DNA of 32,000 bases from Candidatus Saccharimonadota bacterium (GTDB lineage: Bacteria > Patescibacteriota > Patescibacteriia > 2-12-FULL-60-25): the NCBI GenBank assembly GCA_963718585.1, contig OY970357.1:870001-902000 (forward strand). The letters are read 5' to 3'. Made by a program: the position numbers and the translations under genes. How positions within the stretch are numbered: the stretch's first letter is position 1; every line of letters begins with the position of its first letter. Shown here one piece after another: positions 2,762-22,478 of this stretch. The notes beneath the pieces were generated by a model. That model was given only the letters and a program-made list of their open reading frames with translations. It made no database searches and was not told the DNA's origin.

Positions 2762-4249
2762 TTAGGATTTATCTGACGGCTCTGATCCCTCTGTCGCTTC
2801 GGGGGAAGGAGCGGGCGTCGTGTCATCGGACTCTGTTTCGTTCGCGACATCCGCGTCATCCGCAGGTTTCGTGTCGTCCGCGGGCGCCGTGATCTCCTCC
2901 GCCTTTTCCTCAGCTTTGATCTGCGCACCCTCGAGCGGTTCATGCGAGGCTTCCGCGACAGACTCCTTTGCTTCAGCTTCTGCGACCGTCTCCGGCGCAT
3001 CCGGCTTCTCCGTCACCCCTTCGATCGGTTCAAACGCACCCTTCTCCGAATCAGCGACCTTCTTCCCGCCCTCTTCAGCGATCGTGATCTTCCAGTTCGT
3101 GAGTTTCGCCGCCAGACGGACGTTCTGTCCGCCTTTGCCGATCGCGAGCGACAGCTGGTCCGCGGGCACGTCGACCGTGGCCAGGTGGTCATCCGCATTC
3201 AACTTCACGCTATTGACCTTTGCCGGCGACAGGGACGCGGCGATGTACTCCGACTCCTCGCCGGACCAACTGATGACATCAACCTTTTCGCCGCCGAGCT
3301 CGCGGATGATCGTCTGGATGCGTGTTCCGCGTTGGCCGATGCACGATCCGATCGGATCGATCGCCTCGTCATGCGCGGTCACGGCCACCTTCGTGCGCGA
3401 ACCGGCCTCGCGTGCGATGTTCTTGATCTCGACCGTCCCGTTGGCGACCTCCGGGATCTCCTGTGCGAAGATCGCGGCGACCAATCCCGGGGACGAACGA
3501 GACAAACGGATCTCCGGACCCTTCGGCGTCATCGCGACCTCACGAAGCAACGCTTTGATGCGCGTCCCGGGGTAATAGCGTTCGGATTCGATCTGATCTT
3601 CCGGCAGGAGGATCCCCGTTGCGCGGCCAAGGTCGATCAGGACGATACGTCCTTCACGGCGCTGGACCGTCACGTTCATGAGCTCGCCTTCGCGATCCTT
3701 GAAGTCCGTATAAATGACGTTGCGCTCCGCCTCACGGAGCTTCTGCATGATGACCTGCTTCGCAGTCTGCGCCGCCATGCGACCGAACGCGGCCGGCACG
3801 GTCAACTCGACGCGGATCTCATCTCCGATCTGTGCATCGGGTTTGAGATCCTTGGCGTCCGAAAGCATGATCATCGTCTTCTGATTGAACGCGAACTCTT
3901 CCTCGGAGGGTGCTTCACCGAGCTGTTCGGGCGGGATCGTCTCACCGGCCTTGCGGGCGACCTTCTGTGCCTCGCGCTTGGCCGTCGCCGCCTCTTCGAA
4001 CCGTTCAAAGTAGTCCTCCGGGAGCTCCATGTCCTGGACAACGGTCTTTACATCAAAGACCCGGATGCCTTCGGTGGCTCCGTCGTAGGTCTCAGGGTCG
4101 AATTGGACCTTGATGTTCTGGTTTTTGGTACCGAAGTCTTTCCGATACGCCGCCGCGAGGGCCGCTTCGACCGCTTCGATCACCGCTTCGGGCGCGAGGT
4201 TCTTTTCCTCGCAGATCTGACGGATCGCCTGGGAAATGGGTGATGCCAT
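2762..4249 (-). CDS. nusA: transcription termination/antitermination factor NusA with ~90-aa acidic C-terminal tail
   Basis: 495 aa. It has a NusA N-terminal region (ICEEKNLAPEAVIEAVEAALAAAYRK), an S1-like segment (GELMNVTVQRREGRIVLIDLG) and two KH-like segments (DPIGSCIGQRGTRIQTIIRELGGEKVDVI; LSLAIGKGGQNVRLAAKLTNWKITI). The tail after about aa 400 is E/D/A/T/P-rich. Confidence 0.95.
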   Translation of the reverse strand: MASPISQAIRQICEEKNLAPEAVIEAVEAALAAAYRKDFGTKNQNIKVQFDPETYDGATEGIRVFDVKTVVQDMELPEDYFERFEEAATAKREAQKVARKAGETIPPEQLGEAPSEEEFAFNQKTMIMLSDAKDLKPDAQIGDEIRVELTVPAAFGRMAAQTAKQVIMQKLREAERNVIYTDFKDREGELMNVTVQRREGRIVLIDLGRATGILLPEDQIESERYYPGTRIKALLREVAMTPKGPEIRLSRSSPGLVAAIFAQEIPEVANGTVEIKNIAREAGSRTKVAVTAHDEAIDPIGSCIGQRGTRIQTIIRELGGEKVDVISWSGEESEYIAASLSPAKVNSVKLNADDHLATVDVPADQLSLAIGKGGQNVRLAAKLTNWKITIAEEGGKKVADSEKGAFEPIEGVTEKPDAPETVAEAEAKESVAEASHEPLEGAQIKAEEKAEEITAPADDTKPADDADVANETESDDTTPAPSPEATEGSEPSDKS

Positions 4250-4401: not shown

Positions 4402-4446
4402 GTAGAACGCTTTTCACAAGCGTTTGCCCTTTCCAGAGGAGGTTCC

Positions 4447-5193
4447 GTGAGCAAAGGTCCTGATAGCAATCCCCGCAGTTCCCGCCCCCCGTTCCCGCTG
4501 ATCCGCAACAGCAAGCCGATGAAGGCCTTCGTCCGTGCCGCCGTGCATGAAGCGCGCGAGCACTGCGTCGTCCCCCTCATCGTCGGTCCCAACCGACTCG
4601 AGCTTCGATCCTTCGCCGAGTCCGTCTCGCAAGAACGGGATCTCGGCGGTATACGGATCGTGGACAGCAACATGCCTCACCCCTACGAGCTCGAGTCCGA
4701 GGACGTGAAGACCGTCATCTTTCTCCACGGTGAGCGGATGACGAAGGTCCTGCAACGCGCGTTCGCGCGGAGTCAGCTCCATCATCTCCGCGGTGTCCTC
4801 GTCGCGTTTTCCAAGAACCCGCGGAGTTCGACCGGTCCGAGGAACAAGTGGGATGAGGCATTCCTCAAGATCTGGGGGAACGCGCTGGTCTGGCCGCACT
4901 GGAAACAGCGCCCGTCGGATCATCGTCCTCTCGTGCGGCAGATCCATAAACGGCTCTCCATGGGAGGTGGACGCAAGGCTCCACCGTTCGCGAAGAGCGC
5001 CGCCATGCTCCTGCACCAACTGCCGTTCAGGGGGACGGATGACGCGGAACGCGCGATCAAGCAAGCGCTCACCGTCTACATCCGGACACAGTCGACAGGT
5101 GATCTGAAGGCAGAACACTTCATCGCCTCGAACAGCCTCCCCTCGCTCCCCTCCGTACGCGCGATCCCGGACCTCGCGACCGCGTCGCGCTAA
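4447..5193 (+). CDS. hypothetical protein (248 aa, no family recognised)
   Basis: The GTG start is preceded by a strong SD, AGAGGAGG (4434-4441). A hand count of third positions in the first 60 codons gives 47/60 G/C. Codon choice (atc, ctc, gtc, ttc, aag, gac) matches clpP. A + strand terminator follows. The competing minus ORF 4414..5316 is judged to be its antisense shadow. Confidence 0.55.
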   Translation: MSKGPDSNPRSSRPPFPLIRNSKPMKAFVRAAVHEAREHCVVPLIVGPNRLELRSFAESVSQERDLGGIRIVDSNMPHPYELESEDVKTVIFLHGERMTKVLQRAFARSQLHHLRGVLVAFSKNPRSSTGPRNKWDEAFLKIWGNALVWPHWKQRPSDHRPLVRQIHKRLSMGGGRKAPPFAKSAAMLLHQLPFRGTDDAERAIKQALTVYIRTQSTGDLKAEHFIASNSLPSLPSVRAIPDLATASR

Positions 5194-5218
5194 AAAAAAA
5201 GGAGCGCGGATGCGCTCC
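5192..5218 (-). terminator. rho-independent terminator for the giant gene (second of two hairpins)
   Basis: The minus strand reads GGAGCGC-ATCC-GCGCTCC followed by T9. The stem is at 5201-5207/5212-5218, and the T-run is the complement of A9 at 5192-5200. Confidence 0.7.
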
Positions 5219-5227
5219 CTCTCTCTT

Positions 5228-5263
5228 CCCCCGCTTTGCCGACCGGCAGACGGGGGATTTTTT
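5228..5263 (+). terminator. rho-independent terminator for the 4447..5193 gene
   Basis: CCCCCG(C)TTTGCC-GACC-GGCAGACGGGGG forms a ~12-bp stem with one bulge (5228-5256), followed by ATTTTTT (5257-5263). The T-run overlaps the stop codon of the convergent giant gene. Confidence 0.65.
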
Positions 5264-8200
5264 ATGACTGAACACCGAGCTGCAAGGCGCCCGGATACAC
5301 GACCCATGGCCGCCACGGCGTCAAGTTCGGAAGCGTCGTGTCACAGGTATTGGTGACCGACTTCCCTTGTCCCGTCCCCAATGAGAACGGCACTTTCGAG
5401 TTATCGACGTTGTAGAGCCGCGTCGCATCATAACACCCGCCATTTTGATACAGGATCGTATTCGTATACCCACCGCCGCTGAAACCAGCACCTGGCTGAT
5501 TCCCACCGAGATCCTGGATCCGACATTCTCCCGTACACCAGCCCCAGGCGTCCTTCAGTTGCACCCGCGGCGTGAACCGGCACGCTGCATTCTGTGCGTC
5601 ATAACACCCACCCGGCGGCGCAAGATCCGAGAGACATGTGTCCCCCACCGCGCAATTCGCATCGCTCGTACATTTGCGATCTGTATCACGGGAGCATCGC
5701 TTTTCATTCCCACATGCCGGCAGACTCGCCTCCTGCTGCTTGGAGCAGGTGTAGGCATGCGAGTAATCGAAGTAGTTTTGCTCACATGCGGAATCGGTAT
5801 TCCCGAATGTCGTTCGGATCACGCATTTATCGGTGACTATGCCGACCGTACAATCGCTATCGGTCTGACATGTCACGTTCGGCCGCGCATTACAGAATCC
5901 GGTATTGATGCACTTCCCCCCTCCCGGCGGACAATCCGCATCCGAGGAACAGGTCAGTCCCGGCGTGAATTCACACTCCTTCGACACACCGCAGAACGGC
6001 TTTTTGTTCTTCATCTTCGCATCATGCGTTTCCGTCGTCTGGCCATCACCCCAATCCACGATCGCATCGGTCAACGGACCTTGATTGTCCGCGGCCCAAC
6101 CGTAGAAGCGGAGCGTCGCGATCGCTTGTCCGCCGACATACGCGACCTTGCCTTCGGTCTGATTCTCAAAGGTGAATGCATTCGTCCGTGCGACCCCGCA
6201 CTGCCCGGCCGCCTGGCAGGCGTGACCCGTATCCGGCGCCGCCATGGTCGGCGGACGCGGGGTGTAGTACGAGACGTAGCGCTGGTCGAGGGCGGCGAAC
6301 AGATTCGGGTTGTTATTGATCTGCGCGAGATAGTCCGGCGTGTAGTGTCCCGGCGTCACATCCGTCGGCGGACTCTGGAGCGAGAGATTGTTCGAGGTCT
6401 TCGACCCGATCGTCGACAGGTCGTTCTGCCTGATCGCGGTCAAGCATTCCTGACGATCCGGCATGTCGCCACAGAGATCAGCGCGTGCATAATACCCCGC
6501 ATTATGTGTACAGAGATTGTTATCCGTATCGAGATTCTGAGAATGCGAATCACCGCTCGCCTGATCACAATCAAAGCTGATGCGATATTGCGAAGGAACA
6601 GCACCCTGATAATCAGCACTTGCACTCGAGTTCGGTATAAGCGCGTTATTCGGCCCAGATGTGCTTACCGGCTGACAGAAGTAGCCGGATTTCGTGACAT
6701 CCGTCTGCGACAAGTCCGGCGGCGCACAATCCGCATTCTGCGTGCAGTTCGAGCCTTCGTATGCCCCGCCTTCGCAGATTCCCGGGGTCCAGCCTGGGCC
6801 GCGATATCGAGAACTGTCGTATGGAGCTGTATGTGGCACCTTATCCACCGGTGGGCGCTCGCAGTGTCCTGGAATGAATATCTGATAGTCATCGCCTGGC
6901 AGAGGCGTCTCGACGAAAACACCTGGAAATTTATGAAGTTCAGCTGCTTTCGAAGGAAATACAAGGTAACGACCTTTACGAAGATCTTTCCCGCCAATAT
7001 CATTTCCGTTTTTAACACCATCGCTACTATCGTTCCGATTTCCTGCACCCGCACTCGGAATCCACCAATCATTCGTACCTACGTCTCCAAGCGTAACATT
7101 GGTATAGGGTTTATTTACCGTCGAATCATCACCGCCGCCGTATGTCTCGAAGTATGGCGCATTGGCCCAGAAATAGTCCTTATGTCCCTCGATCGTGAAA
7201 TTTCCCTGGCCTGCTGGATATGGATTTGGATAATCTTTGCCATTGTTCCACCATTCGATCCATGTAAACTCACAATCAGAACTCTGAGTGCAAGCGGCGT
7301 GCTCATACCCATTCGTGCAATGATTATTTACGCACTGTGCGTGTTGCTCCCCGTCATTCGTATCAGGTCCCGATAAGACCTCGATCGGGCACTCTTGCGA
7401 GATCGACGCAACTTTCGTACACGAAACACTGACTGGATCTCCGTTTGGATCCGGTTTTCCATTCTTATATTTGACCGGGTAATGGACCGCGTTATTCGCA
7501 CAACGCATGGCGCCAAGGTCTGAAGCTGCTTGAGCTGTCTGACAGATAATAGTGTCACCCGCCTGACACGTGGAATGACCTGACGCTTGACAGTTGCAAG
7601 CCGTGTTCGCATTCGCGTTCTTTATCATCGTTGCATCCTGAACATTCTTAAAGGTATACGTCAGATTGTTCTGTTCCCATCCAGATTGCAGATCGCACGA
7701 TGTGTACTGCGGCTGAAGCTGACCTTGGACCAACTTCATTGGCGCGTTATGGCAGACACCATACCCTTCTAGCTGATTCCCAAGGTCGCCTGAACACGGC
7801 AAGCCTGAGTTCACGCCAGAAAGCGAGTTGCACAATGCTTGGCCCTTAGATGCGTCGATGAGTTTGGAGTTACACGTTCCGGCATAGCCACAGTAAGTAA
7901 TGGACGCATTGGTCATGTCCGTCGCTGTGGCACCCGAAGCCGGCGTGGGACACCAGGCGCCAAAGCGCGGACCATCGATACAGGCGTATGACGTCTTGCC
8001 GACCGGACGGTCATACCAGCGATAGACGCGGTAGACCCGTGCGAAGATGTTCGTCAGCCACGCCCAGTTTCCGGTCGGGACGACACTCCCCTTGTTCGCA
8101 TATTCCGCCCCGGCTGAAAGCCAGATCGGCGGACGGAGCTTGTTGTCCGAGCCCGGCATTGCGCCAGGGACCTGATACAACGGAGAGATGCCGATCGGAG

Positions 8201-11200
8201 CCGAATTCCTTGCCGAACCGAATGGGGCGTTCTTCGTCGAGTACGTGTCACCCAGCACGGGTACGGTGTAATTCGCGTCCTGCTGGATGCGATCCATGAA
8301 CGGTGTCGCATCTCTTGTATCCGGGGCCACGACCTGCGCGACCTGATGACAGATATCGCTGTGACCGACCACGAGACCCATATAGATCGCGCTCTCGCTT
8401 TGTCCGCCTGGCATGGATGCTGTGACCCAAAAGCCGACGAAACGGAACGGACCCGCGAGCTGCTGCGGATTCATCTCCTCCGTCGCAATGCCATTCTCGT
8501 CCTTGTTCGTGTCCTCGAACATCGCGCGGATCGAGAAGAACGGCTTGCTTGAATCGCTCTTTTGATAATAGACGTACGGCTCATCGAACTTCACCGGTCC
8601 GCCATATTCCGGCCACTGCATGCGGAACTCCTTTTGACCGGAGTTCTGGTACCCGATCTCCCAGTACCGATAGAAACAGTTCTCGTCATTCGGCGGCTTA
8701 TCACCATCATACTTACACGGAACCTTTTGAAGCGCCGTCCCATCGCTATTCATGAAATTCTGTGCCGAATCCGGCCCCATGGTCTGACTGAAATTCTGAT
8801 TGAAATGCTTCAGCCAGTCGTTCGTCCCCTTGTTGAGATCATCCGTGTTGTCGTAACTATCCACACTGACGCCGGCCCAGTTGCCGCTGAATCCGCATCC
8901 GATGATCCCGTTGCCCGGATTCGACATGGGTTTGAATGTGAAGTTCGAGAAATTCCGCTCGAGCATGGCATCGCACGCCGAGGAATCTGGATGAGTCAAA
9001 CAATAGTCCGGAGCTTTATCTAACTGATAGAGGAATTTCGCCCACTGCGGACCGTTGAAGCCGATGAAGTATTCATCATAACTCCTCCCGGAACCGCGAC
9101 CCGTCTGGATCCAGCGACCGTAGGCCTGTGAGGCCATATGACTCGAATTGATCAGGCCGAATCCCGAGGTGATACCGCCAGCAAAAGTATAAGACTCGAC
9201 CGTGCTCCACGCGCTCGGATTCCCGCCATTCTCCTGGTCATCCGCCTGCTCACACTGAGACCCCATGGACCCGCCATCTGCACTGTTCCCATCGATGAAC
9301 GTCCCGTCGTTCCCAGCGCAGGCGAAACAGCTTCCATCCGAAACATAATCTTCATCGAAGTTGAACTGACCCTTTCCTTTCATCTGCCCCGGCGCACCGA
9401 GCCAACTTTCGCTCGCGGGGATCGCCGTCGTCTTTGGCGGAAGCGCATTCGCGACGCAGTAGTATTCTCCGCTGTTCGCAGGCGGCAGATATCCGGCGGT
9501 CGGCTGATAGTGATAGATATCGCTCTGACCGAAGAGCACAGGCGTCGGATCCCACACGAGACACGGATTATGCTCCTGCGACCCGCCGATGACGCGCGAC
9601 GGATCACGCTGGAGGCACTGGCCGTATTGCCCACGAACCAACGCGATCGTATCGATCGGTGAACAGACACCAGACCCGCACTGATTGAACGTACCTGTAC
9701 TCGTCGCAACGGCACTGCCTTGCGTGCTCCCGTCTGTTTTTGGAACCTCTCCACCCGCATTGCCCGCTCCCGTATCGCAGGATACCCCGTCTTTCTGGCC
9801 CCCGACGCAGATCCCGCTCGGCGGTGTCTGCCCGTAGAGCTGGTAATATAACGTCTTTCCGCCATAACTGATCTTCCGATAGCTGCACGAACAATTCTCC
9901 CCATACTGACAAAAAGTCGCGCTATCATATCCATCCGCTACCTTGGAAGGTTGCGGCGGATCCTTGGTCAGATCCCAGTTCTTCACATACCACGTGGGGA
10001 ACGGCGAAGAAGATTCTGGATAAGCTTTGCACTCCGCCGGCGGAAACGCATCCGAGAGTGGTTGGAAAATGGCTGGGTCCTTCAACTGTTGGAACATGAC
10101 GGCCGCATTCTCCGCATTTCGCGGGTTGGTGTTCGACTGTCCGAATAGCTCTGCCGCACTCTGGACATACGGTGCATCGATCGCAAGATAACAATTCTTC
10201 GGTTCCGCAGGGATACGTGCAGGCGGCACCGCCTTGGATTGTTCTTCAGCACTGACGAGGTAGTACCCGACCTGTCCCGTCGCCACACTGCGGCACAGAT
10301 TCAGATAGGGATACTTCGGATCGACATAGAGTGCCGCAGCTCCTTTGCAGGTGCTCTTCAGTTGCGATGCCCCGCCTGACTGGAGAGCGTTCGCGCATGC
10401 GTTAACTGCCGCGTTGTAGTCACTGACTGTAGTGCCGTTAATTTGAGAAACGATCGGCAAGGCGGCGGTAAGCCGATAATCATGGATATATGTATCTTTC
10501 GTGTTGTCATTCAATCCGGCAAGAAGCTCATACCCAACGCGACGCGTCGAGTAATCGGCGATCTGATAATGGTTCGGCAATGCATACCCGCTGTAATCAG
10601 GGTCACTGAAGCCGGTCGGCCGATCCATGTATGTGGGAAGATCAAGGAAGACCCCCTGTCGCAAGACCGGCTCATAGAATCCTTCTCCCTGCTTCGGGAC
10701 GGGCGCGGTCGGAGAACGATCCACGTAATGCGCGCAGAAATTCTTCGACGTGGACCCACCTGGTTGATCGCACACCTTGAGGTCCGTGCAAATGTCCACG
10801 TATTTTTGCTGGGATGGATCATAGACCGTCTCCGCCGTGGCGCATCCGAGCCAGGTCTGACAGTCACGGTCAAGTTTGACCTTCACGACCGTATTCGCGT
10901 CATTGACCATACACGTCCCCTTGACGTCATAGCCATCTGGATCCGCGTATGCCGACGTATGCGAACAATCCGTATCGGTCGTACACGATGCCCCTGACTT
11001 TTGTGAGATGAAGTTCGGCGCGCTATCTGCTGCATTTGGATTGCATCCATTCCCTCCACAACCAAGTTGAACGAGATCCTGACACGTTCCGGCATTTTTA
11101 CACGCCGCATTCGAAGGATCCGTCACGCAGTTCACCGCCGCGACCGGGTTGTCATTTTCTTGTTTTAACTTGGCGTACGTCGCCTTCGATGAATATAACA

Positions 11201-14200
11201 ACTGGCTATTGCCCATGTCTCGGAAAAGCACGCATCCATTCAGCGGATCCGCGATGCCGTTGCAGGTCGAGAGATCAAGCTTATTGTTCGCGATGAAGAA
11301 ATAGGACTTTCCGCCCGGATGCGCCGGGTCCGTATGATCGTTCGGGTCGCGATATTCCGTGCACTCGGACTGATCCTGCGGACATAGCTCCGTCCATCCA
11401 CGATAATTCGGTGCCGCGGAGAAGGACATGAGGAAGTTGTTCCCGCTCGAAAGCAGATCCGGGTAACACGGTTCAGGAGGATCCACGCCTTGGACGAAGA
11501 ACCCGGAATATTCACCAGCGGGAAAGGTCGTCCCGTACTTGGTCACCGTGTCCGGCAAAAGGACACGCTCACGCCATTCGCATGCATGGTTCCCCATGGC
11601 CGCCGGGTCACGGAAATAAGCAGCCGTCTGTCCGCTCTGGAACGCATCGCAGAACAACGCACTCGGGCGACACAACATGTCGGGATTCCCATTCCCGTCG
11701 ACATACTTGGTGATGTCATCCTTCAGATAGACGGTCTTATATCCGCTCGGCTGACCATCTGCACTAAAGGTCGGTTTGCCAAAGGCGCGACATGACTCCT
11801 GTGAGGCATCACAATGCGCTGACGGTTCATCAATGAGGTAGGCATACCGATCTGCTGGCCGGGTGACCGTGTTGTCACCGGCATAATAGGAATCCCAATT
11901 CTTCGCATTCGGTCCGGACGGGGCCGAAAGACCTTTCATCGTGAAAGACTGCGCGGACGCATCGTCAGAATTGCGCGTGTCGACGAAGGCCGAACACCCG
12001 ATCGCCTGCTCTTTACAGAGTCGGGAGAACTGACGAACATCTACGGTATTCCCCAGGCGATCAGTGTATTCCCGACATCCAAGCATTGCTTGTGGCTGAG
12101 GCACTCCCTGCGCCGTCTGGTCACATTCGGCTGGAGTGGTCCACGAATCCTTCTTCACGTAGATCGCATCCTGCAGACGGGATACACGGATCTCGTCGAG
12201 ATACGTGACGTTCGTCAACGAATTGAACTCGAGGAAGACCTGGCCCGGTGCACTTGTGCGGAACGGACCGATCTCATACCGCGCCCAGTCCGTCCCGAGC
12301 GTGAATGAGCCAACGGTTGTCTTTCCGACCACGATCTTGCTGTTCGGATCGTGCGACGCATCAGTGGTCTTGGCCCAGAACGAGACCGTATACAGCGTGT
12401 CCGTCGTCGCCTCGAACGGAAGTTTGATCCCGACGTATTTTTGATTGGCCGTGGTCTCGAGTTTCAACGAATAATCTCCGACCAAGAGAGATTCTGTAGA
12501 GTAGGATACATTCGTCGAACCATCTCCGAAATACGGCGTCGTACTCGTCGCCCCTGCAAAACTCTCATGAAGGACCGTATAGGTATTCCGACCCGTCGTT
12601 CCGATATATCCGCGGCATCCGGCGTTATCCGCCTGACAGGTGTTGCTTGCCGATGGCAGGATCTTGTAGAGACAATCCTTCGTGCCCGCACCCCCCGACG
12701 TTCCGCCCGTCTTGGCACAATCAGCTGGCGTCGAATTGCTCTTCCGATAGTCCACACACGCATCGGAAGAGACCACGGTCTGCGAGAAGAATCGATAGAA
12801 GATCTTCCCGGCTTCATCATAGAACTGACGACAATCCGTATCTGCACCGCTCTGCCAGAACGTATCCGTACATAACTCCGGCTTCTTTAGGATCCCATCC
12901 GGGCCGGCTTTGTGCAGGATCTTCGGACCGCCCGCCGTCTCCGTCGGAGATCCAAGATCATCCTGCGGATTTGTCGGATCCTCCTTGATCAAACTCCACG
13001 TCCGCAGCTGATATCCCGTCGTATCAGAACCTTCCCAGGTGAAGTAGGTTCGGCTGTTATCGTTCGGCTTCTCACAGGCACGCGCGTACGTGTAGTACGC
13101 CTTCGCCTCCCCGCCGGCAGAGGACGTTTCGAGGTTCGTGAACTCCTCACATCCCGCCTGCGCCGCCGTACACTGCTGTGCCTGCTTGGGGATGAAGGTC
13201 GCGTTCGTATCATCCTGTGCATCGTCTAAGAACGTGTCGGGGCTGTGTGTCAGATCGAACGCGGAGGGCAACTTCTGATACTGAGCATATCCGACACAGG
13301 AGTTCGGGCAGTAATCGTTCGCGCTCAGGATGGCCGGCACTTCGGTCGGATCGCCTCCACTCGTATCGGTATACCCCTGACACCCCACATCGCCCTGACT
13401 GCAGACCCGCGCAAAATCTCCGCAATGCGGATTATCTTTGTTCGCATCGCCCGTACACGCAAGCTCCTCCGGAGCGATCTTGAGGTGATCCGCGCGGAGC
13501 CCACGATTCACCCCGTCGACATATGCGGTCGCCGCATTCCCCTCTTCCAACTGGACCGCATCGATCTTCGCATTGGCTCCCTGCACGATGACGTTCGCCT
13601 GTGCCGCGTCCTTATTCGTCACGAATTCGCACGTTGCGCGCACCCACGTGTCCGTCAAATTATTATTCGTAACTCCTGGAGAGGTCTGACTCTGACTCGA
13701 ACAATTCGAACTTCGGAAGTATCCCTGACCGACCGGCGGAGTCGCGACGACCTTCCCCGAAGCATCCAAAAGCTGAACGTTGACGGCCGAGCTGCCTCCC
13801 GCATTGAAATCACCGATCTTTGCATAAAAGGAAACGACGTAATTCCGCAATGGCGCGACGGCGACAGATTCCGTCAATGAATTCGCCGTATCCAAGACCG
13901 CTGCCTGATTCCCGTCTTCCGCATCCCCCTCACCTTCCGGATTCGCAACATAGGTATACGTTCCATTCGGAGTCCATATATCCAACGCATTCGGATCCGC
14001 GTCCGATGGGTTCTCAAACGAGCTGTTCTGCACCAGATTCAATGCCGGCTGACCGGGCTCGACATGATAGACCTTCGTGCATCCGTCACCGGACGCGTCA
14101 CATGGTTGAGCGGTCGCGTCGAAGTACACGCGTGGCATTGCCGCCCCTTTCGCAAGGTTCAGCGACGGATACGCCTTTGGAAGATTCAACTTGATGCTCG

Positions 14201-16148
14201 ACGGGTCTCCGGTCGATGTCGTACTCACCCACGCGACCGTCGAGGTGACCGACGGATCCTCGGTCGTCGCATAGAACATGCAGCCGACATTGTCCTGGTT
14301 GCACTGTCCGTAATCCAGCGTGTTCCGAACATACGAGACCTGCTGCCCGTTGCTCGCACTCCCCTGACGGGTCGTATACGTCCGACAGGATGCGTATTTC
14401 TCTTCACAGACATCTGCACTGAATCGCCAAACCGTTTTTTCAGAGAGACAATATCCGTATCCACCGACGCAGTTCCCCTTATCGTCCCGCTTGAGACAAG
14501 AGACGACGTCCTGACACTCCTGTTGTCGGCTCCCTGCGGCATCCACCGTATCGCTGTACCCCCGTGTCTGGCACTGGAATGGCGGTGCGGTCAAAACCCA
14601 TGACGGATCGATCAAATGACACCAGGGGTGCCCCGCATCCGCCTCGTCCTTGGCATTACAGACATTGAAACCGCGGATCACTTCGCCGAGCGTCACATAT
14701 CTTCCGTTCGCTTTCTTGTTGAACGGTGAATTCGCGGCCAGTTCCCAACCGATCGGGATGATACGGGCAAACCGCAGCTTCGCGAGGTTCGAGGAACAGT
14801 ACGCACGCTGATAACAGCTCGGATCCTGGTTGTCCTTTGCTTCAGACTCCGGGATCAACTCCCAGTCGGAATGCAGATATTGCTGACCCGAGACCCCCTG
14901 CGTATTCCCCAAGCCCGCGGCACGTGCGACCGTGTACGCCCCATTCTCCGTGGCACTTTGAAGCGCGCTCGCGAGACCGCTATCCATGGAACACCCCCAC
15001 GTCCCGCGCGGCGTCGGACATGATGAGAGCTCGAAGAGGAAATTCTGCTTGTCTGATGAAACAAGGTTCGGCGTGATGAAATCACTGATGATCGCCGCCT
15101 TCTGCTTTGCGGATTTATCCTGTGCGGATCGCTGAAGATCGACGTTCAACAGGTTCGTATTGTCGTTCCCGCTCCCGATCCAGTTGAAGAACTTTTGGAC
15201 CAGACCGACGGCGAGTGTATTCAGGAAGACCGCACCGGCGAATTCCGGCAACTGCGACAAGCCGGCATTGAACGCCATCAAGGCCTCGGTCGAGGCGAGG
15301 TTTTGTGCATTCTCCTTCGCGAGCTGGATCGGATTCGAAGCCTGCAACGCCTGCTGTGCAGCCAAAGCAGGGGTCGTGATGTTCCCCGCGGCATCCTGCA
15401 GAAGCTTGAACCCTTTCCCCTCCTGTCGATCGAAGGTATACGCCTCCTTCGTGTTCAGGAATTCATCGAGGAATTTCTGATTGCTCGAAAGCGCGAGGCT
15501 CGCGCCATTCTGACCCGGTGAGTTCGCGCGCAAAAGCGTGTCACGGAGTGCCTGCTCATTGAACGCCTGGTATGTGGTCTTGAAATTGGTCGCGATCGTC
15601 TCGAACGTACAATCAGGCTGCTGTAACGGAATGCGGGAAAGTCCCAACGACAACTTGAGATCCAGCGTGATCGGCTGACAGATGTCGATCCCCAGCTCGC
15701 TCTTCAGGTACTGATCATTGAACGAACTGATCATGACGTTGAACGAATTCGTCACGACATCTTTGAAGAACCCACCCCACCCTTTGCTATAGAAGGTCGG
15801 TTCCCCGTTGAACCCGGTCAACACCCAATCGGCCATGTCGGTCATGATCCGTTGGGTGAAGTAGCTGAGACCATTCAAGATGGACGTCGCGACCGCAAAC
15901 TGCCAGGTCTTCTGCAGCTGATCTTTGATCGCGGCGTTCATCTGATTGACGAACTCATAATAATGACACTCATTGATCACCCCGGTTCCGACAGAGAGGA
16001 ATGAGCAGGGATAGAATGGTGACCCAACAGGGAACTGCGTATCCGCCTTTGCCGGGGTCGGGATCCCTGATGTGACGATCACAAGCATGGTAAGCGCCAC
16101 CACGGTCGCACCCTTTGCCAAGTTCCGGTACCAATCACGTCCGATCAT
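5262..16148 (-). CDS. giant secreted/surface Cys-rich protein, 3,628 aa (signal peptide, two CBM/concanavalin-like jelly rolls, split PKD-like C-terminus); whole-protein family unknown
   Basis: It is a single uninterrupted 10,887-nt ORF. The N-terminus MIGRDWYRNLAKGATVVALTMLVIVTSGIPTPAKA/DT looks like a Sec signal with an A-x-A site. The first ~370 aa are Cys-poor (4 Cys by my count). Cys density then rises: 17 Cys in aa ~370-700 and 22 Cys in the last 293 aa. Module signatures are described in the findings. Terminators follow the stop codon. Confidence 0.9.
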   Translation of the reverse strand: MIGRDWYRNLAKGATVVALTMLVIVTSGIPTPAKADTQFPVGSPFYPCSFLSVGTGVINECHYYEFVNQMNAAIKDQLQKTWQFAVATSILNGLSYFTQRIMTDMADWVLTGFNGEPTFYSKGWGGFFKDVVTNSFNVMISSFNDQYLKSELGIDICQPITLDLKLSLGLSRIPLQQPDCTFETIATNFKTTYQAFNEQALRDTLLRANSPGQNGASLALSSNQKFLDEFLNTKEAYTFDRQEGKGFKLLQDAAGNITTPALAAQQALQASNPIQLAKENAQNLASTEALMAFNAGLSQLPEFAGAVFLNTLAVGLVQKFFNWIGSGNDNTNLLNVDLQRSAQDKSAKQKAAIISDFITPNLVSSDKQNFLFELSSCPTPRGTWGCSMDSGLASALQSATENGAYTVARAAGLGNTQGVSGQQYLHSDWELIPESEAKDNQDPSCYQRAYCSSNLAKLRFARIIPIGWELAANSPFNKKANGRYVTLGEVIRGFNVCNAKDEADAGHPWCHLIDPSWVLTAPPFQCQTRGYSDTVDAAGSRQQECQDVVSCLKRDDKGNCVGGYGYCLSEKTVWRFSADVCEEKYASCRTYTTRQGSASNGQQVSYVRNTLDYGQCNQDNVGCMFYATTEDPSVTSTVAWVSTTSTGDPSSIKLNLPKAYPSLNLAKGAAMPRVYFDATAQPCDASGDGCTKVYHVEPGQPALNLVQNSSFENPSDADPNALDIWTPNGTYTYVANPEGEGDAEDGNQAAVLDTANSLTESVAVAPLRNYVVSFYAKIGDFNAGGSSAVNVQLLDASGKVVATPPVGQGYFRSSNCSSQSQTSPGVTNNNLTDTWVRATCEFVTNKDAAQANVIVQGANAKIDAVQLEEGNAATAYVDGVNRGLRADHLKIAPEELACTGDANKDNPHCGDFARVCSQGDVGCQGYTDTSGGDPTEVPAILSANDYCPNSCVGYAQYQKLPSAFDLTHSPDTFLDDAQDDTNATFIPKQAQQCTAAQAGCEEFTNLETSSAGGEAKAYYTYARACEKPNDNSRTYFTWEGSDTTGYQLRTWSLIKEDPTNPQDDLGSPTETAGGPKILHKAGPDGILKKPELCTDTFWQSGADTDCRQFYDEAGKIFYRFFSQTVVSSDACVDYRKSNSTPADCAKTGGTSGGAGTKDCLYKILPSASNTCQADNAGCRGYIGTTGRNTYTVLHESFAGATSTTPYFGDGSTNVSYSTESLLVGDYSLKLETTANQKYVGIKLPFEATTDTLYTVSFWAKTTDASHDPNSKIVVGKTTVGSFTLGTDWARYEIGPFRTSAPGQVFLEFNSLTNVTYLDEIRVSRLQDAIYVKKDSWTTPAECDQTAQGVPQPQAMLGCREYTDRLGNTVDVRQFSRLCKEQAIGCSAFVDTRNSDDASAQSFTMKGLSAPSGPNAKNWDSYYAGDNTVTRPADRYAYLIDEPSAHCDASQESCRAFGKPTFSADGQPSGYKTVYLKDDITKYVDGNGNPDMLCRPSALFCDAFQSGQTAAYFRDPAAMGNHACEWRERVLLPDTVTKYGTTFPAGEYSGFFVQGVDPPEPCYPDLLSSGNNFLMSFSAAPNYRGWTELCPQDQSECTEYRDPNDHTDPAHPGGKSYFFIANNKLDLSTCNGIADPLNGCVLFRDMGNSQLLYSSKATYAKLKQENDNPVAAVNCVTDPSNAACKNAGTCQDLVQLGCGGNGCNPNAADSAPNFISQKSGASCTTDTDCSHTSAYADPDGYDVKGTCMVNDANTVVKVKLDRDCQTWLGCATAETVYDPSQQKYVDICTDLKVCDQPGGSTSKNFCAHYVDRSPTAPVPKQGEGFYEPVLRQGVFLDLPTYMDRPTGFSDPDYSGYALPNHYQIADYSTRRVGYELLAGLNDNTKDTYIHDYRLTAALPIVSQINGTTVSDYNAAVNACANALQSGGASQLKSTCKGAAALYVDPKYPYLNLCRSVATGQVGYYLVSAEEQSKAVPPARIPAEPKNCYLAIDAPYVQSAAELFGQSNTNPRNAENAAVMFQQLKDPAIFQPLSDAFPPAECKAYPESSSPFPTWYVKNWDLTKDPPQPSKVADGYDSATFCQYGENCSCSYRKISYGGKTLYYQLYGQTPPSGICVGGQKDGVSCDTGAGNAGGEVPKTDGSTQGSAVATSTGTFNQCGSGVCSPIDTIALVRGQYGQCLQRDPSRVIGGSQEHNPCLVWDPTPVLFGQSDIYHYQPTAGYLPPANSGEYYCVANALPPKTTAIPASESWLGAPGQMKGKGQFNFDEDYVSDGSCFACAGNDGTFIDGNSADGGSMGSQCEQADDQENGGNPSAWSTVESYTFAGGITSGFGLINSSHMASQAYGRWIQTGRGSGRSYDEYFIGFNGPQWAKFLYQLDKAPDYCLTHPDSSACDAMLERNFSNFTFKPMSNPGNGIIGCGFSGNWAGVSVDSYDNTDDLNKGTNDWLKHFNQNFSQTMGPDSAQNFMNSDGTALQKVPCKYDGDKPPNDENCFYRYWEIGYQNSGQKEFRMQWPEYGGPVKFDEPYVYYQKSDSSKPFFSIRAMFEDTNKDENGIATEEMNPQQLAGPFRFVGFWVTASMPGGQSESAIYMGLVVGHSDICHQVAQVVAPDTRDATPFMDRIQQDANYTVPVLGDTYSTKNAPFGSARNSAPIGISPLYQVPGAMPGSDNKLRPPIWLSAGAEYANKGSVVPTGNWAWLTNIFARVYRVYRWYDRPVGKTSYACIDGPRFGAWCPTPASGATATDMTNASITYCGYAGTCNSKLIDASKGQALCNSLSGVNSGLPCSGDLGNQLEGYGVCHNAPMKLVQGQLQPQYTSCDLQSGWEQNNLTYTFKNVQDATMIKNANANTACNCQASGHSTCQAGDTIICQTAQAASDLGAMRCANNAVHYPVKYKNGKPDPNGDPVSVSCTKVASISQECPIEVLSGPDTNDGEQHAQCVNNHCTNGYEHAACTQSSDCEFTWIEWWNNGKDYPNPYPAGQGNFTIEGHKDYFWANAPYFETYGGGDDSTVNKPYTNVTLGDVGTNDWWIPSAGAGNRNDSSDGVKNGNDIGGKDLRKGRYLVFPSKAAELHKFPGVFVETPLPGDDYQIFIPGHCERPPVDKVPHTAPYDSSRYRGPGWTPGICEGGAYEGSNCTQNADCAPPDLSQTDVTKSGYFCQPVSTSGPNNALIPNSSASADYQGAVPSQYRISFDCDQASGDSHSQNLDTDNNLCTHNAGYYARADLCGDMPDRQECLTAIRQNDLSTIGSKTSNNLSLQSPPTDVTPGHYTPDYLAQINNNPNLFAALDQRYVSYYTPRPPTMAAPDTGHACQAAGQCGVARTNAFTFENQTEGKVAYVGGQAIATLRFYGWAADNQGPLTDAIVDWGDGQTTETHDAKMKNKKPFCGVSKECEFTPGLTCSSDADCPPGGGKCINTGFCNARPNVTCQTDSDCTVGIVTDKCVIRTTFGNTDSACEQNYFDYSHAYTCSKQQEASLPACGNEKRCSRDTDRKCTSDANCAVGDTCLSDLAPPGGCYDAQNAACRFTPRVQLKDAWGWCTGECRIQDLGGNQPGAGFSGGGYTNTILYQNGGCYDATRLYNVDNSKVPFSLGTGQGKSVTNTCDTTLPNLTPWRPWVVYPGALQLGVQS

Positions 16149-16864
16149 AGGCCGCTTGCGCTCGTCCCCCCGGTCGACGTCTGACCGGCGGATTGAGAGT
16201 CATATTGGCTCATCGCCTGATCATAGGCGTCCAACAGTTGCTGGTCCGTCGCAGTATCCAGGATGGATTGATCCACCTTCCCCTGCAGAGCCTGCCGGAT
16301 GACCGTCGGATCGCGAGGAATGGAGGATAGATCTGGCGAACCGGATCCTGCGGTCGCTGCAGCCGTTCCGCTGAGGTCGGCCGCGCTCGGCACGGTCGGC
16401 GCAGTGGGAGCAGACGGTGTTGGAATGGTGGGGAGCGCGAACGGCGTCCCGGACGATGTCAGCGCCGCCGAGACATCCATGAGCCCACCAGGATTCCCGC
16501 CGCCGTTCAGACACGCGATATTCTTCCCGGTCACGACACGAACATTGTCTGGGATCCCGTCACCACAGGAATCTTTAAGGTTGGGATTCGTATGAAAGAC
16601 GTTTATCTCATCCCAATCCGAAAGTCCGTCACCATCTGTGTCGGTCCGCTTCTGCCGCGCTTCATCTTCCGCCGGCGTCGTCCCGATCAATTGCTTCGTG
16701 GCGATGAGGTCTTGCTTGTTGACGAGGAACGGAGCGTACACGCTTTGTTGGATATGATAGAGAGAAAGCACAACAGCAAAGATCCCACAGACGCCCAAAA
16801 CCCAAACAGAGAGCTTCTGTTCGAGGGAAAAGCTTTGCCAGCGTTCACGGACAGATTGCCACAT
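16145..16864 (-). CDS. single-pass membrane protein with thrombospondin-type-3-like Ca-binding repeat and P/T/S/A-rich linker
   Basis: 239 aa. The TM helix is KLSVWVLGVCGIFAVVLSLY (aa ~17-36). The repeat TDTDGDGLSDWDEINVFHTNPNLKDSCGDGIPD (aa 73-106, nt 16547-16648) matches the D-x-D-x-D-G-x-x-D-x-x-E type. A low-complexity PTIPTPSAPTAPTVPS linker follows. The stop overlaps the giant-gene start in ATGA (16145-16148). Confidence 0.8.
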   Translation of the reverse strand: MWQSVRERWQSFSLEQKLSVWVLGVCGIFAVVLSLYHIQQSVYAPFLVNKQDLIATKQLIGTTPAEDEARQKRTDTDGDGLSDWDEINVFHTNPNLKDSCGDGIPDNVRVVTGKNIACLNGGGNPGGLMDVSAALTSSGTPFALPTIPTPSAPTAPTVPSAADLSGTAAATAGSGSPDLSSIPRDPTVIRQALQGKVDQSILDTATDQQLLDAYDQAMSQYDSQSAGQTSTGGTSASGL

Positions 16865-16935: not shown

Positions 16936-16944
16936 AGTATAGCA
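16936..16944 (-). promoter_or_regulatory. candidate extended -10 promoter (TGCTATACT) for the two-gene giant cassette
   Basis: The minus strand reads caTGCTATACTttttt. It lies ~70 nt upstream of the ATG at 16864, and no good -35 was found. The identical 9-mer precedes hsp20. Confidence 0.35.
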
Positions 16945-22350: not shown

Positions 22351-22413
22351 ACGTCGAAGGCATAGCGTAACGGAATGGCGCTCGAATGGGTAGGGGGACG
22401 GCGCGAGAATGGG

Positions 22414-22442
22414 TTGACGGAAGCATCCATCTCGCGTATACA
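22414..22442 (+). promoter_or_regulatory. candidate sigma70 promoter (TTGACG-17-TATACA) for the 22479 gene
   Basis: The -35 is at 22414-22419, followed by a 17-nt spacer and the -10 at 22437-22442. An SD AGGAG (22469-22473) lies 5 nt before the ATG at 22479. Confidence 0.4.
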
Positions 22443-22478
22443 CCCATCGGTTCTTTTCCCCCTCACACAGGAGAACGA

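What the first reader, a model, noticed from the sequence alone, without database searches (positions are those of the whole stretch)
5262..16864. Two-gene surface cassette: a TSP3-repeat membrane protein translationally coupled to a 3,628-aa Cys-rich secreted giant of unknown family
One third of the window is a single intact 10,887-nt ORF, and the stop of the upstream gene overlaps its ATG (ATGA, 16145-16148). That upstream gene encodes a 239-aa single-pass membrane protein carrying a D-x-D-x-D-G-x-x-D Ca-binding repeat.

The giant protein has a Sec-type signal (…PTPAKA/DT) and a Cys-poor ~370-aa N-terminal region with amphipathic/hydrophobic helices. Roughly 3,200 aa at about 5-7% Cys follow, consistent with an extracellular disulfide-rich protein. 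It has no C-terminal anchor, no LPXTG and no obvious long tandem repeats.

I recognise only small modules (jelly rolls, a PKD-like piece), not the whole. The cassette has its own candidate promoter (16936-16944) and a double terminator (5192-5263), so it looks like an autonomous unit.

Hypothesis (inference): this is a cell-surface attachment or host-interaction apparatus, and the small Ca-binding membrane protein tethers or matures the giant.
Basis: partly seen in the sequence, partly recalled or inferred. Interest (0 to 1): 0.85.

Follow-up and report, generated by a model that had tools for sequence, protein, structure and literature searches.

The report
Conserved giant secreted protein with membrane partner
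A tiny-genome groundwater bacterium (Patescibacteria, Uhrbacteria-like) spends 1% of its DNA on one exported, disulfide-stapled 3,628-residue protein that is always encoded right behind a small calcium-binding membrane protein; the pair is conserved across hundreds of related species, matches almost nothing known, and is probably a cell-surface contact structure.

Summary
ORFs 16145-16864(-) (239 aa) and 5262-16148(-) (3,628 aa) overlap by ATGA. They have their own extended -10 promoter and an intrinsic terminator.

The pair is ancient, not an assembly artefact. All 78 related loci with enough upstream sequence carry the small gene directly upstream of the giant. About 48 complete orthologues (3,000-4,600 aa) are collinear. 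An exhaustive HMMER search finds 2,316 representative clusters. Named hosts are Patescibacteria, mostly Candidatus Uhrbacteria.

The giant has a cleavable Sec signal, no anchor, and 142 cysteines that are 87% conserved (other residues 32%). Only two CBM4/9-type jelly rolls are recognisable, inside an ancient ~450-aa duplication. Pfam, NCBIfam, PHROGs, PDB profiles and Foldseek on two AlphaFold models find nothing else.

The small protein is a TM helix, an invariant double TSP3 Ca loop, a flexible linker and a conserved helix.

Best reading (inference, ~0.45): a membrane-tethered, glycan-binding surface complex used for cell-cell or host contact. Rivals are an envelope scaffold and a secreted enzyme. 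I found no published description. This is a new protein family of a known general kind.

The parts
16936..16944 (-). Extended -10 promoter element TGCTATACT, 72 nt upstream of the small gene's ATG
   Evidence: Read directly. TGnTAnnnT occurs within 200 nt upstream of the small gene in 55/78 relatives against 27/390 control windows, often as the identical 9-mer. No two-hexamer sigma-70 match was found.
16145..16864 (-). Small gene: 239-aa single-pass membrane protein with a TSP3 Ca-binding double loop
   Evidence: ORF. Pfam TSP3_bac scores 28.4 bits, above the cut-off of 25. About 100 full-length homologues exist. A homologue lies directly upstream of the giant in 78/78 loci.
16745..16813 (-). 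Small protein TM helix (aa ~18-40)
   Evidence: Kyte-Doolittle 19-residue window maximum of 2.27, the only hydrophobic segment. Conserved in alignment A5.
16544..16648 (-). Small protein double Ca-loop (aa 73-107: DTDGDGLSDWDE...D-x-GDG-x-PDN)
   Evidence: Invariant D75 T76 D77 D79 S82 D83 E86 D102 G103 D106 in 26 homologues. TSP3_bac hit.
16319..16507 (-). Small protein variable low-complexity Pro/Thr/Ala/Ser linker (aa ~120-182)
   Evidence: Alignment A5 shows a region variable in length and sequence.
16199..16318 (-). Small protein conserved C-terminal helical motif (PRDPxAIRxAL...SDxQLLxxYDxA, aa ~183-222)
   Evidence: Conserved block in A5, with R190 invariant and L193, L202, D207, Y214 at 90% or more. 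The Arg_decarbox_C hit on it is sub-threshold and judged spurious.
16145..16148 (-). ATGA stop/start overlap (translational coupling)
   Evidence: In relatives the giant's ATG is mostly 0-20 nt after the small gene's stop.
5262..16148 (-). Giant gene: 3,628-aa secreted disulfide-rich protein
   Evidence: ORF. About 48 complete collinear orthologues of 3,000-4,600 aa. 2,316 representative clusters in the exhaustive search.
16044..16148 (-). Sec signal peptide (aa 1-35, ...PTPAKA/DT)
   Evidence: The only hydrophobic segment, aa 9-33. K/R n-region, h-region and A-x-A motif are seen family-wide. No dedicated predictor was available.
15039..16043 (-). Cys-poor N-terminal helical domain (aa 36-370), fastest-evolving conserved part
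   Evidence: AlphaFold predicts long helices at low to moderate confidence. 27% median identity across 41 loci. Present in 108/144 representatives. Foldseek gives only non-significant F-BAR-like matches.
14049..15038 (-). Most conserved core (aa 371-700; NQDPxCY...NLxKLRxARIxPxGWExAANS...HPWCHLIDPNW...GGYGYC)
   Evidence: 50% median identity. Present in 144/144 representatives. pLDDT 70-95 for aa ~370-525. No Pfam, PDB or Foldseek match.
13509..14048 (-). CBM4/9-like beta-jelly-roll 1 (aa ~701-880)
   Evidence: Pfam CBM_4_9 E 0.018, below cut-off. NCBIfam GTA_spike_fiber E 9e-4. PDB profile hits to CBMs, best E 3.3e-4. Homologous to module 2 by hhalign at 95% probability.
12582..13508 (-). Cys-hairpin region (aa 881-1189) with recurrent C-x6-C-x2-[FY] motif
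   Evidence: Nine motif copies between aa 581 and 1600, all with exact x6 spacing. These cysteines are invariant in A2.
12144..12581 (-). CBM4/9-like beta-jelly-roll 2 (aa ~1190-1335)
   Evidence: PDB profile hit to laminarinase 16A CBM4 (1gui), E 1e-5. PHROG tail-fibre family E 1.7e-4 at aa 1203-1293. The equivalent module in the distant member P0287 passes the Pfam cut-off, 35.9 against 25.9 bits.
8949..12143 (-). Conserved mid-body (aa 1336-2400), no recognisable fold
   Evidence: Found in 120-134 of 144 representatives. AlphaFold mean pLDDT 58 with about 380 residues at 70 or above, mixed beta-hairpins and short helices. Foldseek against PDB and BFVD finds nothing, best E 0.3-0.7.
6432..8948 (-). 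Lineage-specific and hypervariable zone (aa 2401-3239)
   Evidence: aa 2429-2800 is found in only 25/144 representatives. aa 2800-3200 has occupancy 0.46-0.66 and identity 0.11-0.19. Only 9/41 loci are alignable there, at 27% identity.
5265..6431 (-). Conserved C-terminal Cys-knot-rich module (aa 3240-3628) ending in RPW[IV]VYPGS[LV]QL
   Evidence: Alignment A10 has many invariant Cys, W and G residues. Present in 104/144 representatives. Terminal motif seen. No Pfam hit (PKD included) and no PDB match.
5192..5256 (-). Two hairpins after the stop; the second (5201-5218) plus T9 (5192-5200) is an intrinsic terminator, shared with the convergent gene 4447-5193(+)
   Evidence: Read directly. The stem was reported by the scan on the + strand. 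The convergent gene is conserved in 4 close relatives.

Best explanation
The two genes are one transcription unit with its own extended -10 promoter and an intrinsic terminator. They make two envelope proteins in coupled amounts.

The small product sits in the membrane by one N-terminal helix. Outside the cell it displays a Ca-binding TSP3 double loop, a flexible Pro/Thr/Ala-rich spacer and a short conserved helical end-piece.

The giant is exported by Sec and loses its signal peptide. It is locked by about 70 conserved disulfides. It carries two CBM4/9-type glycan-binding jelly rolls on an otherwise unrecognisable body.

The mature giant has no anchor of its own and is never found without the small gene. 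I therefore infer that the small protein holds it on the cell as a membrane tether across the wall. I further infer that the complex projects from the surface as a rigid glycan-binding structure, used for contact with another cell's surface (a host or partner of this presumed episymbiont) or with a polysaccharide.

Shown: the operon anatomy, the export signals, disulfide conservation, the CBM-like modules, universal pairing, and joint evolution.

Inferred: physical binding of the two proteins, surface retention, the ligand, and the role in attachment.
For: - Operon: ATGA overlap; stop-to-ATG spacers mostly 0-20 nt in relatives; conserved extended -10 in 55/78 loci against 27/390 controls; hairpin plus T9; upstream HSP20 orientation flips 33:33.
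- Pairing: 78/78 loci. It also holds in distant members in a different neighbourhood.
- Export without an anchor: Sec signal with A-x-A family-wide; a single hydrophobic segment; no LPXTG.
- Extracellular disulfide-stapled fold: Cys 87% conserved against 32% for other residues, 110/142 at 90% or more.
- Glycan-binding modules: CBM_4_9 / CBM4 hits.
- Small protein architecture: TM helix, invariant Ca loops, linker, conserved helix.
- Joint evolution: partial r 0.67-0.75 between small-protein and giant distances after removing VanW phylogeny, against 0.24 for HSP20. The small protein and the giant's N-terminal domain are the fastest-evolving conserved parts, at 35% and 27% identity.
- A hypervariable insert zone at aa 2800-3200 could carry specificity.
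- Cost: 1% of a 1.08-Mb genome.
Against:
- No ligand is known, and CBM-type jelly rolls can be purely structural.
- The window's own first CBM is below Pfam's cut-off.
- The giant's body evolves no faster than the neighbouring VanW. It sits at one conserved core-chromosome locus. Neither is typical of fast-evolving host-specificity adhesins.
- About 90% of the protein has no recognisable fold, so an unrecognised catalytic or other activity cannot be excluded.
- The mirror-tree signal is not specific to any region of the giant. It could reflect shared rate shifts among exported proteins.
- No expression or localisation data exist.
Confidence: 0.45

Rival explanations
1. A structural envelope component. 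The giant, held by the small protein, would be a wall-associated scaffold or surface-lattice protein that the lineage needs for envelope integrity or shape. It would not be a host-binding device.
For: - Universal and apparently single-copy. Each of the 80 loci comes from a different assembly.
- Fixed core-chromosome locus between SMC/VanW/HSP20 and NusA in many genomes.
- Moderate evolutionary rate, similar to VanW.
- Not on viral contigs.
- The conserved neighbour VanW carries a peptidoglycan-binding domain.
- CBM-like modules could bind the cell's own wall glycans.
Against: - No SLH or other wall-binding or self-assembly domain was detected.
- Known S-layer proteins are typically almost free of cysteine (my knowledge), whereas this one has 142.
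- The VanW neighbourhood is lost in distant members while the pair persists.
- The hypervariable zone at aa 2800-3200 is easier to explain by external ligands.
Confidence: 0.25
2. A secreted or surface-displayed enzyme for attacking or scavenging polymers. The highly conserved core (aa 371-700), or another unrecognised region, would be catalytic. The CBM modules would target it to a polysaccharide substrate, as in multidomain glycanases.
For: - CBM4/9 modules are usually appended to glycoside hydrolases; the PDB matches are CBMs of laminarinase, xylanase and endoglucanase.
- The core is the most conserved part, with invariant polar residues D442, N454, K457, R459, R462, E469 and D547.
- There are 15 cysteines, an odd number, between aa 445 and 690, including the invariant HPWCHLIDP stretch. 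One could therefore be free (my inference).
- Giant genes of other ultra-small bacteria have been linked to cell-wall degradation (bioRxiv 10.1101/2023.11.21.568195, title and abstract).
Against: - No catalytic family is detected by Pfam, NCBIfam, PDB profiles or Foldseek on the confidently modelled core.
- 3,600 residues and about 70 disulfides are far more than an enzyme needs.
- An obligatory membrane partner is not a feature of secreted glycanases.
Confidence: 0.15
3. A polymorphic toxin or effector-delivery protein (Rhs/Tc/CDI-like). The giant body would encapsulate or carry a C-terminal toxin.
For: Size, secretion, and a variable region near the C-terminal third.
Against: - The C-terminal ~390 aa are conserved, not polymorphic.
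- There are no RHS/YD, TPS or toxin domains.
- Foldseek on the mid-body gives no shell-like match.
- There is no downstream immunity-like gene. The next gene is convergent and found only in 4 close relatives.
Confidence: 0.03
4. Assembly chimera or non-coding open frame.
For: None found. Read-level data were not available.
Against: - About 48 independently assembled orthologues are collinear end to end.
- Cysteines are conserved at 87%.
- There are 2,316 representative clusters.
- The chance probability of the open frame is about 1e-58 (arithmetic).
Confidence: 0.01

Closest known systems
Very large extracellular surface proteins of small-genome symbionts, e.g. Giant1-5 of Apilactobacillus kunkeei (PMC12863079, abstract seen)
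   Same: Exported proteins of 3,000 residues or more that take up a percent-scale share of a small genome. They are thought to act in cell interaction.
   Different: The giant here is a single gene with an obligatory small membrane partner. It is Cys-rich and disulfide-stapled, orthologous across hundreds of species, and has no recognisable repeat architecture. No direct sequence comparison with Giant1-5 was made.
Giant genes of Omnitrophota and other putative predators (bioRxiv 10.1101/2023.11.21.568195)
   Same: Unusually long genes in ultra-small, presumably cell-associated bacteria, with a proposed role at another cell's envelope.
   Different: Those proteins are an order of magnitude longer and built from many recognisable domains. 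That paper mentions CPR only in passing and does not mention Uhrbacteria or cysteine. The protein here has only two recognisable modules.
CBM4/CBM9/CBM22-type carbohydrate-binding modules of glycanases (Pfam PF02018; PDB 1gui, 2zew, 1k42)
   Same: Two beta-jelly-roll modules match these profiles.
   Different: No catalytic glycoside-hydrolase domain accompanies them. The window's first module is below Pfam's cut-off. Ligand binding is untested.
Bacterial TSP3-repeat envelope proteins (Pfam PF18884; e.g. OmpA-family proteins with TSP3 linkers, MtsD)
   Same: The small protein has the D-x-D-x-D-G-x-x-D Ca-binding loops above Pfam's cut-off and a weak local match to MtsD.
   Different: It has no OmpA, beta-barrel or other domain. 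It is a 239-aa bitopic protein whose only other conserved element is a short C-terminal helix.
Anchor-plus-passenger surface systems (two-partner secretion TpsA/TpsB; LapA-type T1SS adhesins; Ca-dependent cohesin-dockerin docking)
   Same: Works-like analogy only: a large exported passenger depends on a dedicated small, adjacent gene product, and calcium-binding loops may mediate docking.
   Different: There is no TPS domain, no Omp85 partner, no RTX repeats or T1SS signal, and no cohesin or dockerin profile match. Export is by a classical Sec signal.

Membership tests
Pfam TSP3_bac (PF18884), small protein | Profile match above the curated cut-off, with the D-x-D-x-D-G-x-x-D loop | tested here: met
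   28.4 bits against a cut-off of 25, aa 75-95. The loop residues are invariant in 26 homologues.
Pfam CBM_4_9 (PF02018), giant module 1 (aa ~701-880) | Profile match above the curated cut-off (25.9 bits) | tested here: inconclusive
   Window copy scores 15.9 bits, E 0.018. The family profile hits PDB CBMs at E 3.3e-4. hhalign links it to module 2 at 95% probability.
Pfam CBM_4_9 / CBM4, giant module 2 (aa ~1190-1335) | Profile match to CBM4/9 jelly rolls | tested here: met
   The family profile hits laminarinase CBM4 (1gui) at E 1e-5. The orthologous module of P0287 scores 35.9 bits, above the 25.9 cut-off. Carbohydrate binding itself was not tested.
   No PKD hit at E up to 1 in any of 48 orthologous C-terminal modules. 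None in the PDB profile search at E up to 10.
Sortase-anchored (LPXTG) surface proteins | C-terminal LPXTG motif followed by a hydrophobic tail | tested here: not met
   No LPXT[GASN] anywhere in the giant. No C-terminal hydrophobic segment.
Rhs / YD-repeat / Tc-toxin shells | YD/RHS repeats and a shell-forming beta-sheet fold | tested here: not met
   No RHS/YD profile hit. Foldseek on the mid-body gives no such match, with the caveat that the model's mean pLDDT is 58.
Two-partner secretion (TpsA/TpsB) | TPS domain in the passenger and an Omp85/POTRA partner | tested here: not met
   No such domains in either protein. The partner is a 239-aa single-pass protein.
RTX / T1SS giant adhesins (LapA, SiiE type) | No Sec signal; C-terminal T1SS signal or RTX nonapeptides; Ig-like or cadherin-like tandem repeats | tested here: not met
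   A Sec signal is present. No D-x-D-x-D-G or RTX motif in the giant. No tandem repeats. No BIg or cadherin hits.
S-layer proteins | SLH or another wall-anchoring domain; self-assembling lattice | tested here: not met
   No SLH or related profile hit. Lattice formation cannot be tested here.
Polymorphic toxins | Hypervariable C-terminal toxin domain plus an adjacent immunity gene | tested here: not met
   The C-terminal module is conserved. The downstream gene is convergent and restricted to 4 close relatives.

The most novel reading that the evidence does not exclude
The pair would be the conserved, lineage-defining cell-contact organelle of a whole class-level branch of Patescibacteria (Uhrbacteria, Falkowbacteria and relatives). 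A Ca-dependent membrane tether would hold a giant built largely of previously unseen disulfide-stapled folds. Its conserved core would carry an unrecognised activity on the partner cell's envelope, and its hypervariable zone (aa ~2800-3200) would set partner specificity. That would give the first molecular handle on how non-Saccharibacteria CPR bacteria engage other cells.
Probability: 0.25. Interest if true: 0.85.

Novelty: new variant of a known kind. Interest (0 to 1): 0.6.

Why it matters
Most Patescibacteria are thought to live attached to other microbes. Outside the Saccharibacteria, where type IV pili are implicated, the molecules that make contact are unknown.

This pair is a concrete candidate:
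- It costs 1% of a ~1-Mb genome.
- It is kept intact and collinear in hundreds of species.
- It is exported.
- It carries glycan-binding modules.
- It is always co-encoded with a Ca-binding membrane partner.

It is also a large family (over 2,300 clusters at 50% identity) with no Pfam model, no solved relative and no literature found. About 90% of its length has no recognisable fold. It therefore marks both an annotation gap and a structural-biology target.

Tried and rejected
1. Homologue search with the whole 3,628-aa protein timed out. I replaced it with segment searches, which returned mostly contig-truncated fragments, and with the exhaustive profile search.
2. Exact look-up of the window's own small protein found no contig on record, so the source genome could not be read beyond the window.
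3. AlphaFold on aa 36-700 (25-sequence alignment) gave mean pLDDT 55. AlphaFold on aa 1336-2400 (23-sequence alignment) gave mean pLDDT 58.
4. Foldseek of both models gave no match below E 0.3. With models of this quality a negative result does not prove new folds, and no AlphaFold-DB library was available.
5. PDB profile searches over the entire length found only CBMs.
6. The PKD-like idea is rejected.
7. Rhs/Tc shell, TPS, RTX, LPXTG, S-layer (SLH) and polymorphic-toxin readings are rejected on their defining features (see membership tests).
8. A phage or mobile origin is rejected. There are no relatives on viral contigs and the neighbours are housekeeping genes. The PHROG tail-fibre hit is just the jelly roll.
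9. The mirror-tree analysis failed to single out an interacting region of the giant.
10. Literature searches found no description of the family.
11. Names such as Gallionella, Methylomirabilis, Edwardsbacteria, Baltobacteraceae and 'uncultured Gammaproteobacteria' on some hits sit on short contigs or carry placeholder labels. I treated them as mis-binning or mislabelling, not as evidence of wider distribution.

Full report
**Observation**

The window contains a 3,628-codon ORF at 5262-16148 on the minus strand. A 239-codon ORF at 16145-16864 lies immediately upstream, and its TGA overlaps the giant's ATG (ATGA, 16145-16148). At 57% GC the chance of such an open frame is about 1e-58 by my arithmetic.

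Cysteine makes up 3.9% of the giant (142 residues). It ranges from 1% to 9% per 200-residue block and is rare before residue 370.

There is no LPXTG motif and no hydrophobic segment beyond the N-terminal one. Neither DNA-level tandem repeats nor Ca-loop motifs occur in the giant.

**Transcription unit**

The two-hexamer scan missed it. However, the same element, often the identical 9-mer, lies just upstream of the small gene in 55 of 78 related loci, against 27 of 390 control windows.

After the giant's TAA there are two hairpins. The second, GGAGCGC-atcc-GCGCTCC, is followed by T9 (5192-5218), which makes a classical intrinsic terminator. It is shared with a convergent gene at 4447-5193(+) that is conserved in four close relatives. 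The overlapping minus-strand ORF 4414-5316 is spurious.

Its orientation relative to the pair flips 33:33 among relatives, so the pair must be transcribed on its own.

**Context and host**

The neighbours are housekeeping genes: YidC, NusA, HSP20, VanW, a short SMC, a DHH phosphoesterase, GyrA and CofD. The exact small protein is on record from a 1,084,458-bp contig. Homologues with a source name are Patescibacteria, mostly Candidatus Uhrbacteria, with some Falkowbacteria and Parcubacteria. No relative is found on viral contigs. The pair is a core chromosomal locus in a ~1-Mb genome and costs about 1% of it.

**Conservation of the pair**

A scan of species-representative genomes found 213 loci encoding the giant's core, and the best 80 were fetched.
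- In all 78 loci with enough upstream sequence, a homologue of the small protein lies directly upstream on the same strand.
- The giant's ATG is usually 0-20 nt after the small gene's stop.
- The pairing also holds in the most distant members examined (L006, L087, L088). There the neighbourhood is different, and in one case an IS200-like gene has been inserted between the two.
- About 48 complete orthologues are 3,000-4,600 aa long and collinear end to end. This disposes of the chimera worry.
- An exhaustive HMMER search with the N-terminal and core profile finds 2,316 representative clusters at 50% identity. Of these, 1,205 score at E 1e-30 or better, and nearly all complete ones are 2,500-4,400 aa.

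**Anatomy of the giant**

1. A Sec signal peptide with an A-x-A motif, seen family-wide.
2. A Cys-poor N-terminal region (aa 36-370) that AlphaFold draws as long helices at low confidence. It is the fastest-evolving conserved part, at 27% identity.
3. The most conserved core (aa 371-700, about 50% identity). It is confidently modelled for aa 370-525 (pLDDT 70-95) but has no structural or sequence match.
4. Two CBM4/9-type jelly rolls, at about aa 701-880 and 1190-1335. They lie inside an ancient ~450-aa duplication (hhalign up to 95%). They are flanked by nine copies of a C-x6-C-x2-[FY] hairpin motif.
5. A conserved mid-body (aa 1336-2400). About 380 of its residues were modelled at pLDDT 70 or above, with no Foldseek match in the PDB or BFVD.
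6. A lineage-specific and hypervariable zone (aa 2400-3240) that accounts for most of the length variation.
7. A conserved C-terminal module rich in C-x2-D-x-D-C knots. It ends in RPW[IV]VYPGS[LV]QL and has no PKD or other profile match.

Across 48 orthologues cysteines are 87% conserved, against 32% for other residues, and 110 of 142 are at least 90% conserved. This is the signature of an extracellular, disulfide-stapled protein.

**Anatomy of the small protein**

It has a short N-terminus and one TM helix. An invariant double TSP3 Ca loop follows (DTDGDGLSDWDE...D-x-GDG-x-PDN), then a low-complexity linker of variable length. A conserved helical motif (PRDPxAIRxAL...SDxQLLxxYDxA) and a Ser/Thr-rich tail complete it.

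**Evolutionary behaviour**

Across 41 genomes the giant's body is 40-50% identical, like the neighbouring VanW (48%). It is less conserved than SMC (61%), HSP20 (62.5%) and NusA (77%). The small protein (35%), the giant's N-terminal domain (27%) and the insert zone (27%) evolve fastest.

After regressing out VanW distances, small-protein distances correlate with every region of the giant (partial r 0.67-0.75). The correlation with HSP20 is weak (0.24). This fits one functional unit but does not locate an interface.

**Interpretation**

What is shown: an autonomous, translationally coupled operon for a bitopic Ca-binding membrane protein and an anchorless, Sec-exported, disulfide-rich giant with two glycan-binding-type modules, conserved as a pair across a large branch of Patescibacteria.

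What I infer (confidence about 0.45): the small protein tethers the giant at the cell surface, and the complex is a rigid glycan-binding contact structure for engaging another cell or polymer.

A structural envelope role (0.25) is favoured by the fixed locus, the universality and the moderate rate. An unrecognised enzymatic role (0.15) is favoured by the very conserved core and by the usual association of CBMs with glycanases. Toxin-delivery and artefact readings are effectively excluded.

**Comparison with the known, and novelty**

The pair is not a member of any characterised adhesin, toxin, S-layer or secretion-partner family. Each was tested on its defining features and failed (see membership tests). 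Only the small TSP3 repeat and the CBM4/9 modules are known parts.

In kind it resembles other giant exported surface proteins of small-genome symbionts (PMC12863079) and the giant genes of Omnitrophota (bioRxiv 10.1101/2023.11.21.568195). It differs in its obligatory small partner, its cysteine content, its lack of repeats and its strict orthology. Seven literature searches found no description of it.

I rate it a new variant of a known kind, with interest 0.6: a large, unannotated, structurally opaque family that is the best available candidate for the surface-contact machinery of this lineage. Its function is still inferred rather than demonstrated.

**Limits**

- Both AlphaFold models have low mean confidence.
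- No library of predicted cellular structures and no co-folding tool was available.
- No signal-peptide predictor, expression data or read-level data were available.

Noticed in passing
It is conserved next to the pair in 66 loci, but its orientation flips 33:33.
   Followed up: partly
junction small stop to giant ATG, L001-L086: In 45 of 78 loci the giant's reading frame opens immediately after the small gene's stop codon, with spacers of 3n nt and no further stop. That is well above the 1/3 expected, though the loci are not phylogenetically independent. This could reflect conserved short spacers, an ancestral fusion, or low-level read-through. In the window itself the genes are out of frame (ATGA).
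   Followed up: partly
window 20131-22554 (-): The SMC protein is short. The profile match starts at residue 70 of the 807-aa ORF, so the protein is probably ~739 aa, and relatives are 731-748 aa. The canonical SMC model has 1,181 positions, implying a much shortened coiled-coil arm in this lineage.
   Followed up: no
L088 10492-16339; L006 1-822 and 3285-4034: In one distant member the giant is followed by three unannotated genes and then PrgI and TraC-like (conjugative type-IV-secretion-like) genes. Another locus has a T4SS pilin gene and a DsbA-like oxidoreductase within 10 kb. Nothing comparable lies near the window's pair.
   Followed up: no
L006 10687-11948: An IS200-like (Y1 transposase, faint hit) gene and a 163-aa gene are inserted between the small gene and a shorter (2,611-aa) giant. 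This is the only case seen where the pair is split.
   Followed up: no
window 4414-5316 (-) vs 4447-5193 (+): Two long overlapping ORFs lie on opposite strands downstream of the giant. Only the + strand one (248 aa, no family hit) is conserved, in 4 close relatives. The minus-strand one, which overlaps the giant's stop, is spurious.
   Followed up: yes
giant aa 445-690 (window 14079-14816): This most conserved stretch holds 15 cysteines, an odd number. They include the invariant C497, C510 (in HPWCHLIDP) and C526, which do not fall into the obvious local pairs. One may be free or may pair at long range.
   Followed up: no
L022, L024-L027, L029, L030, L032, L033, L042, L069; L043, L068: A sub-clade has 4,250-4,600-aa versions with extra sequence, including Gly-rich extensions beyond the usual C-terminal RPWIVYPG motif. 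Two loci (L043, L068) show the giant split into shorter ORFs of 1,678 and 1,992 aa, which could be frameshifts or assembly errors.
   Followed up: no
hits P0075, P0121, P0134, P0141; many L0xx titles: Some family members are labelled Methylomirabilis, Gallionella, Baltobacteraceae, Edwardsbacteria or 'uncultured Gammaproteobacteria'. They sit on short contigs or carry placeholder names, and their neighbourhoods are Patescibacteria-like. This probably reflects mis-binning or mislabelling in public MAGs.
   Followed up: partly
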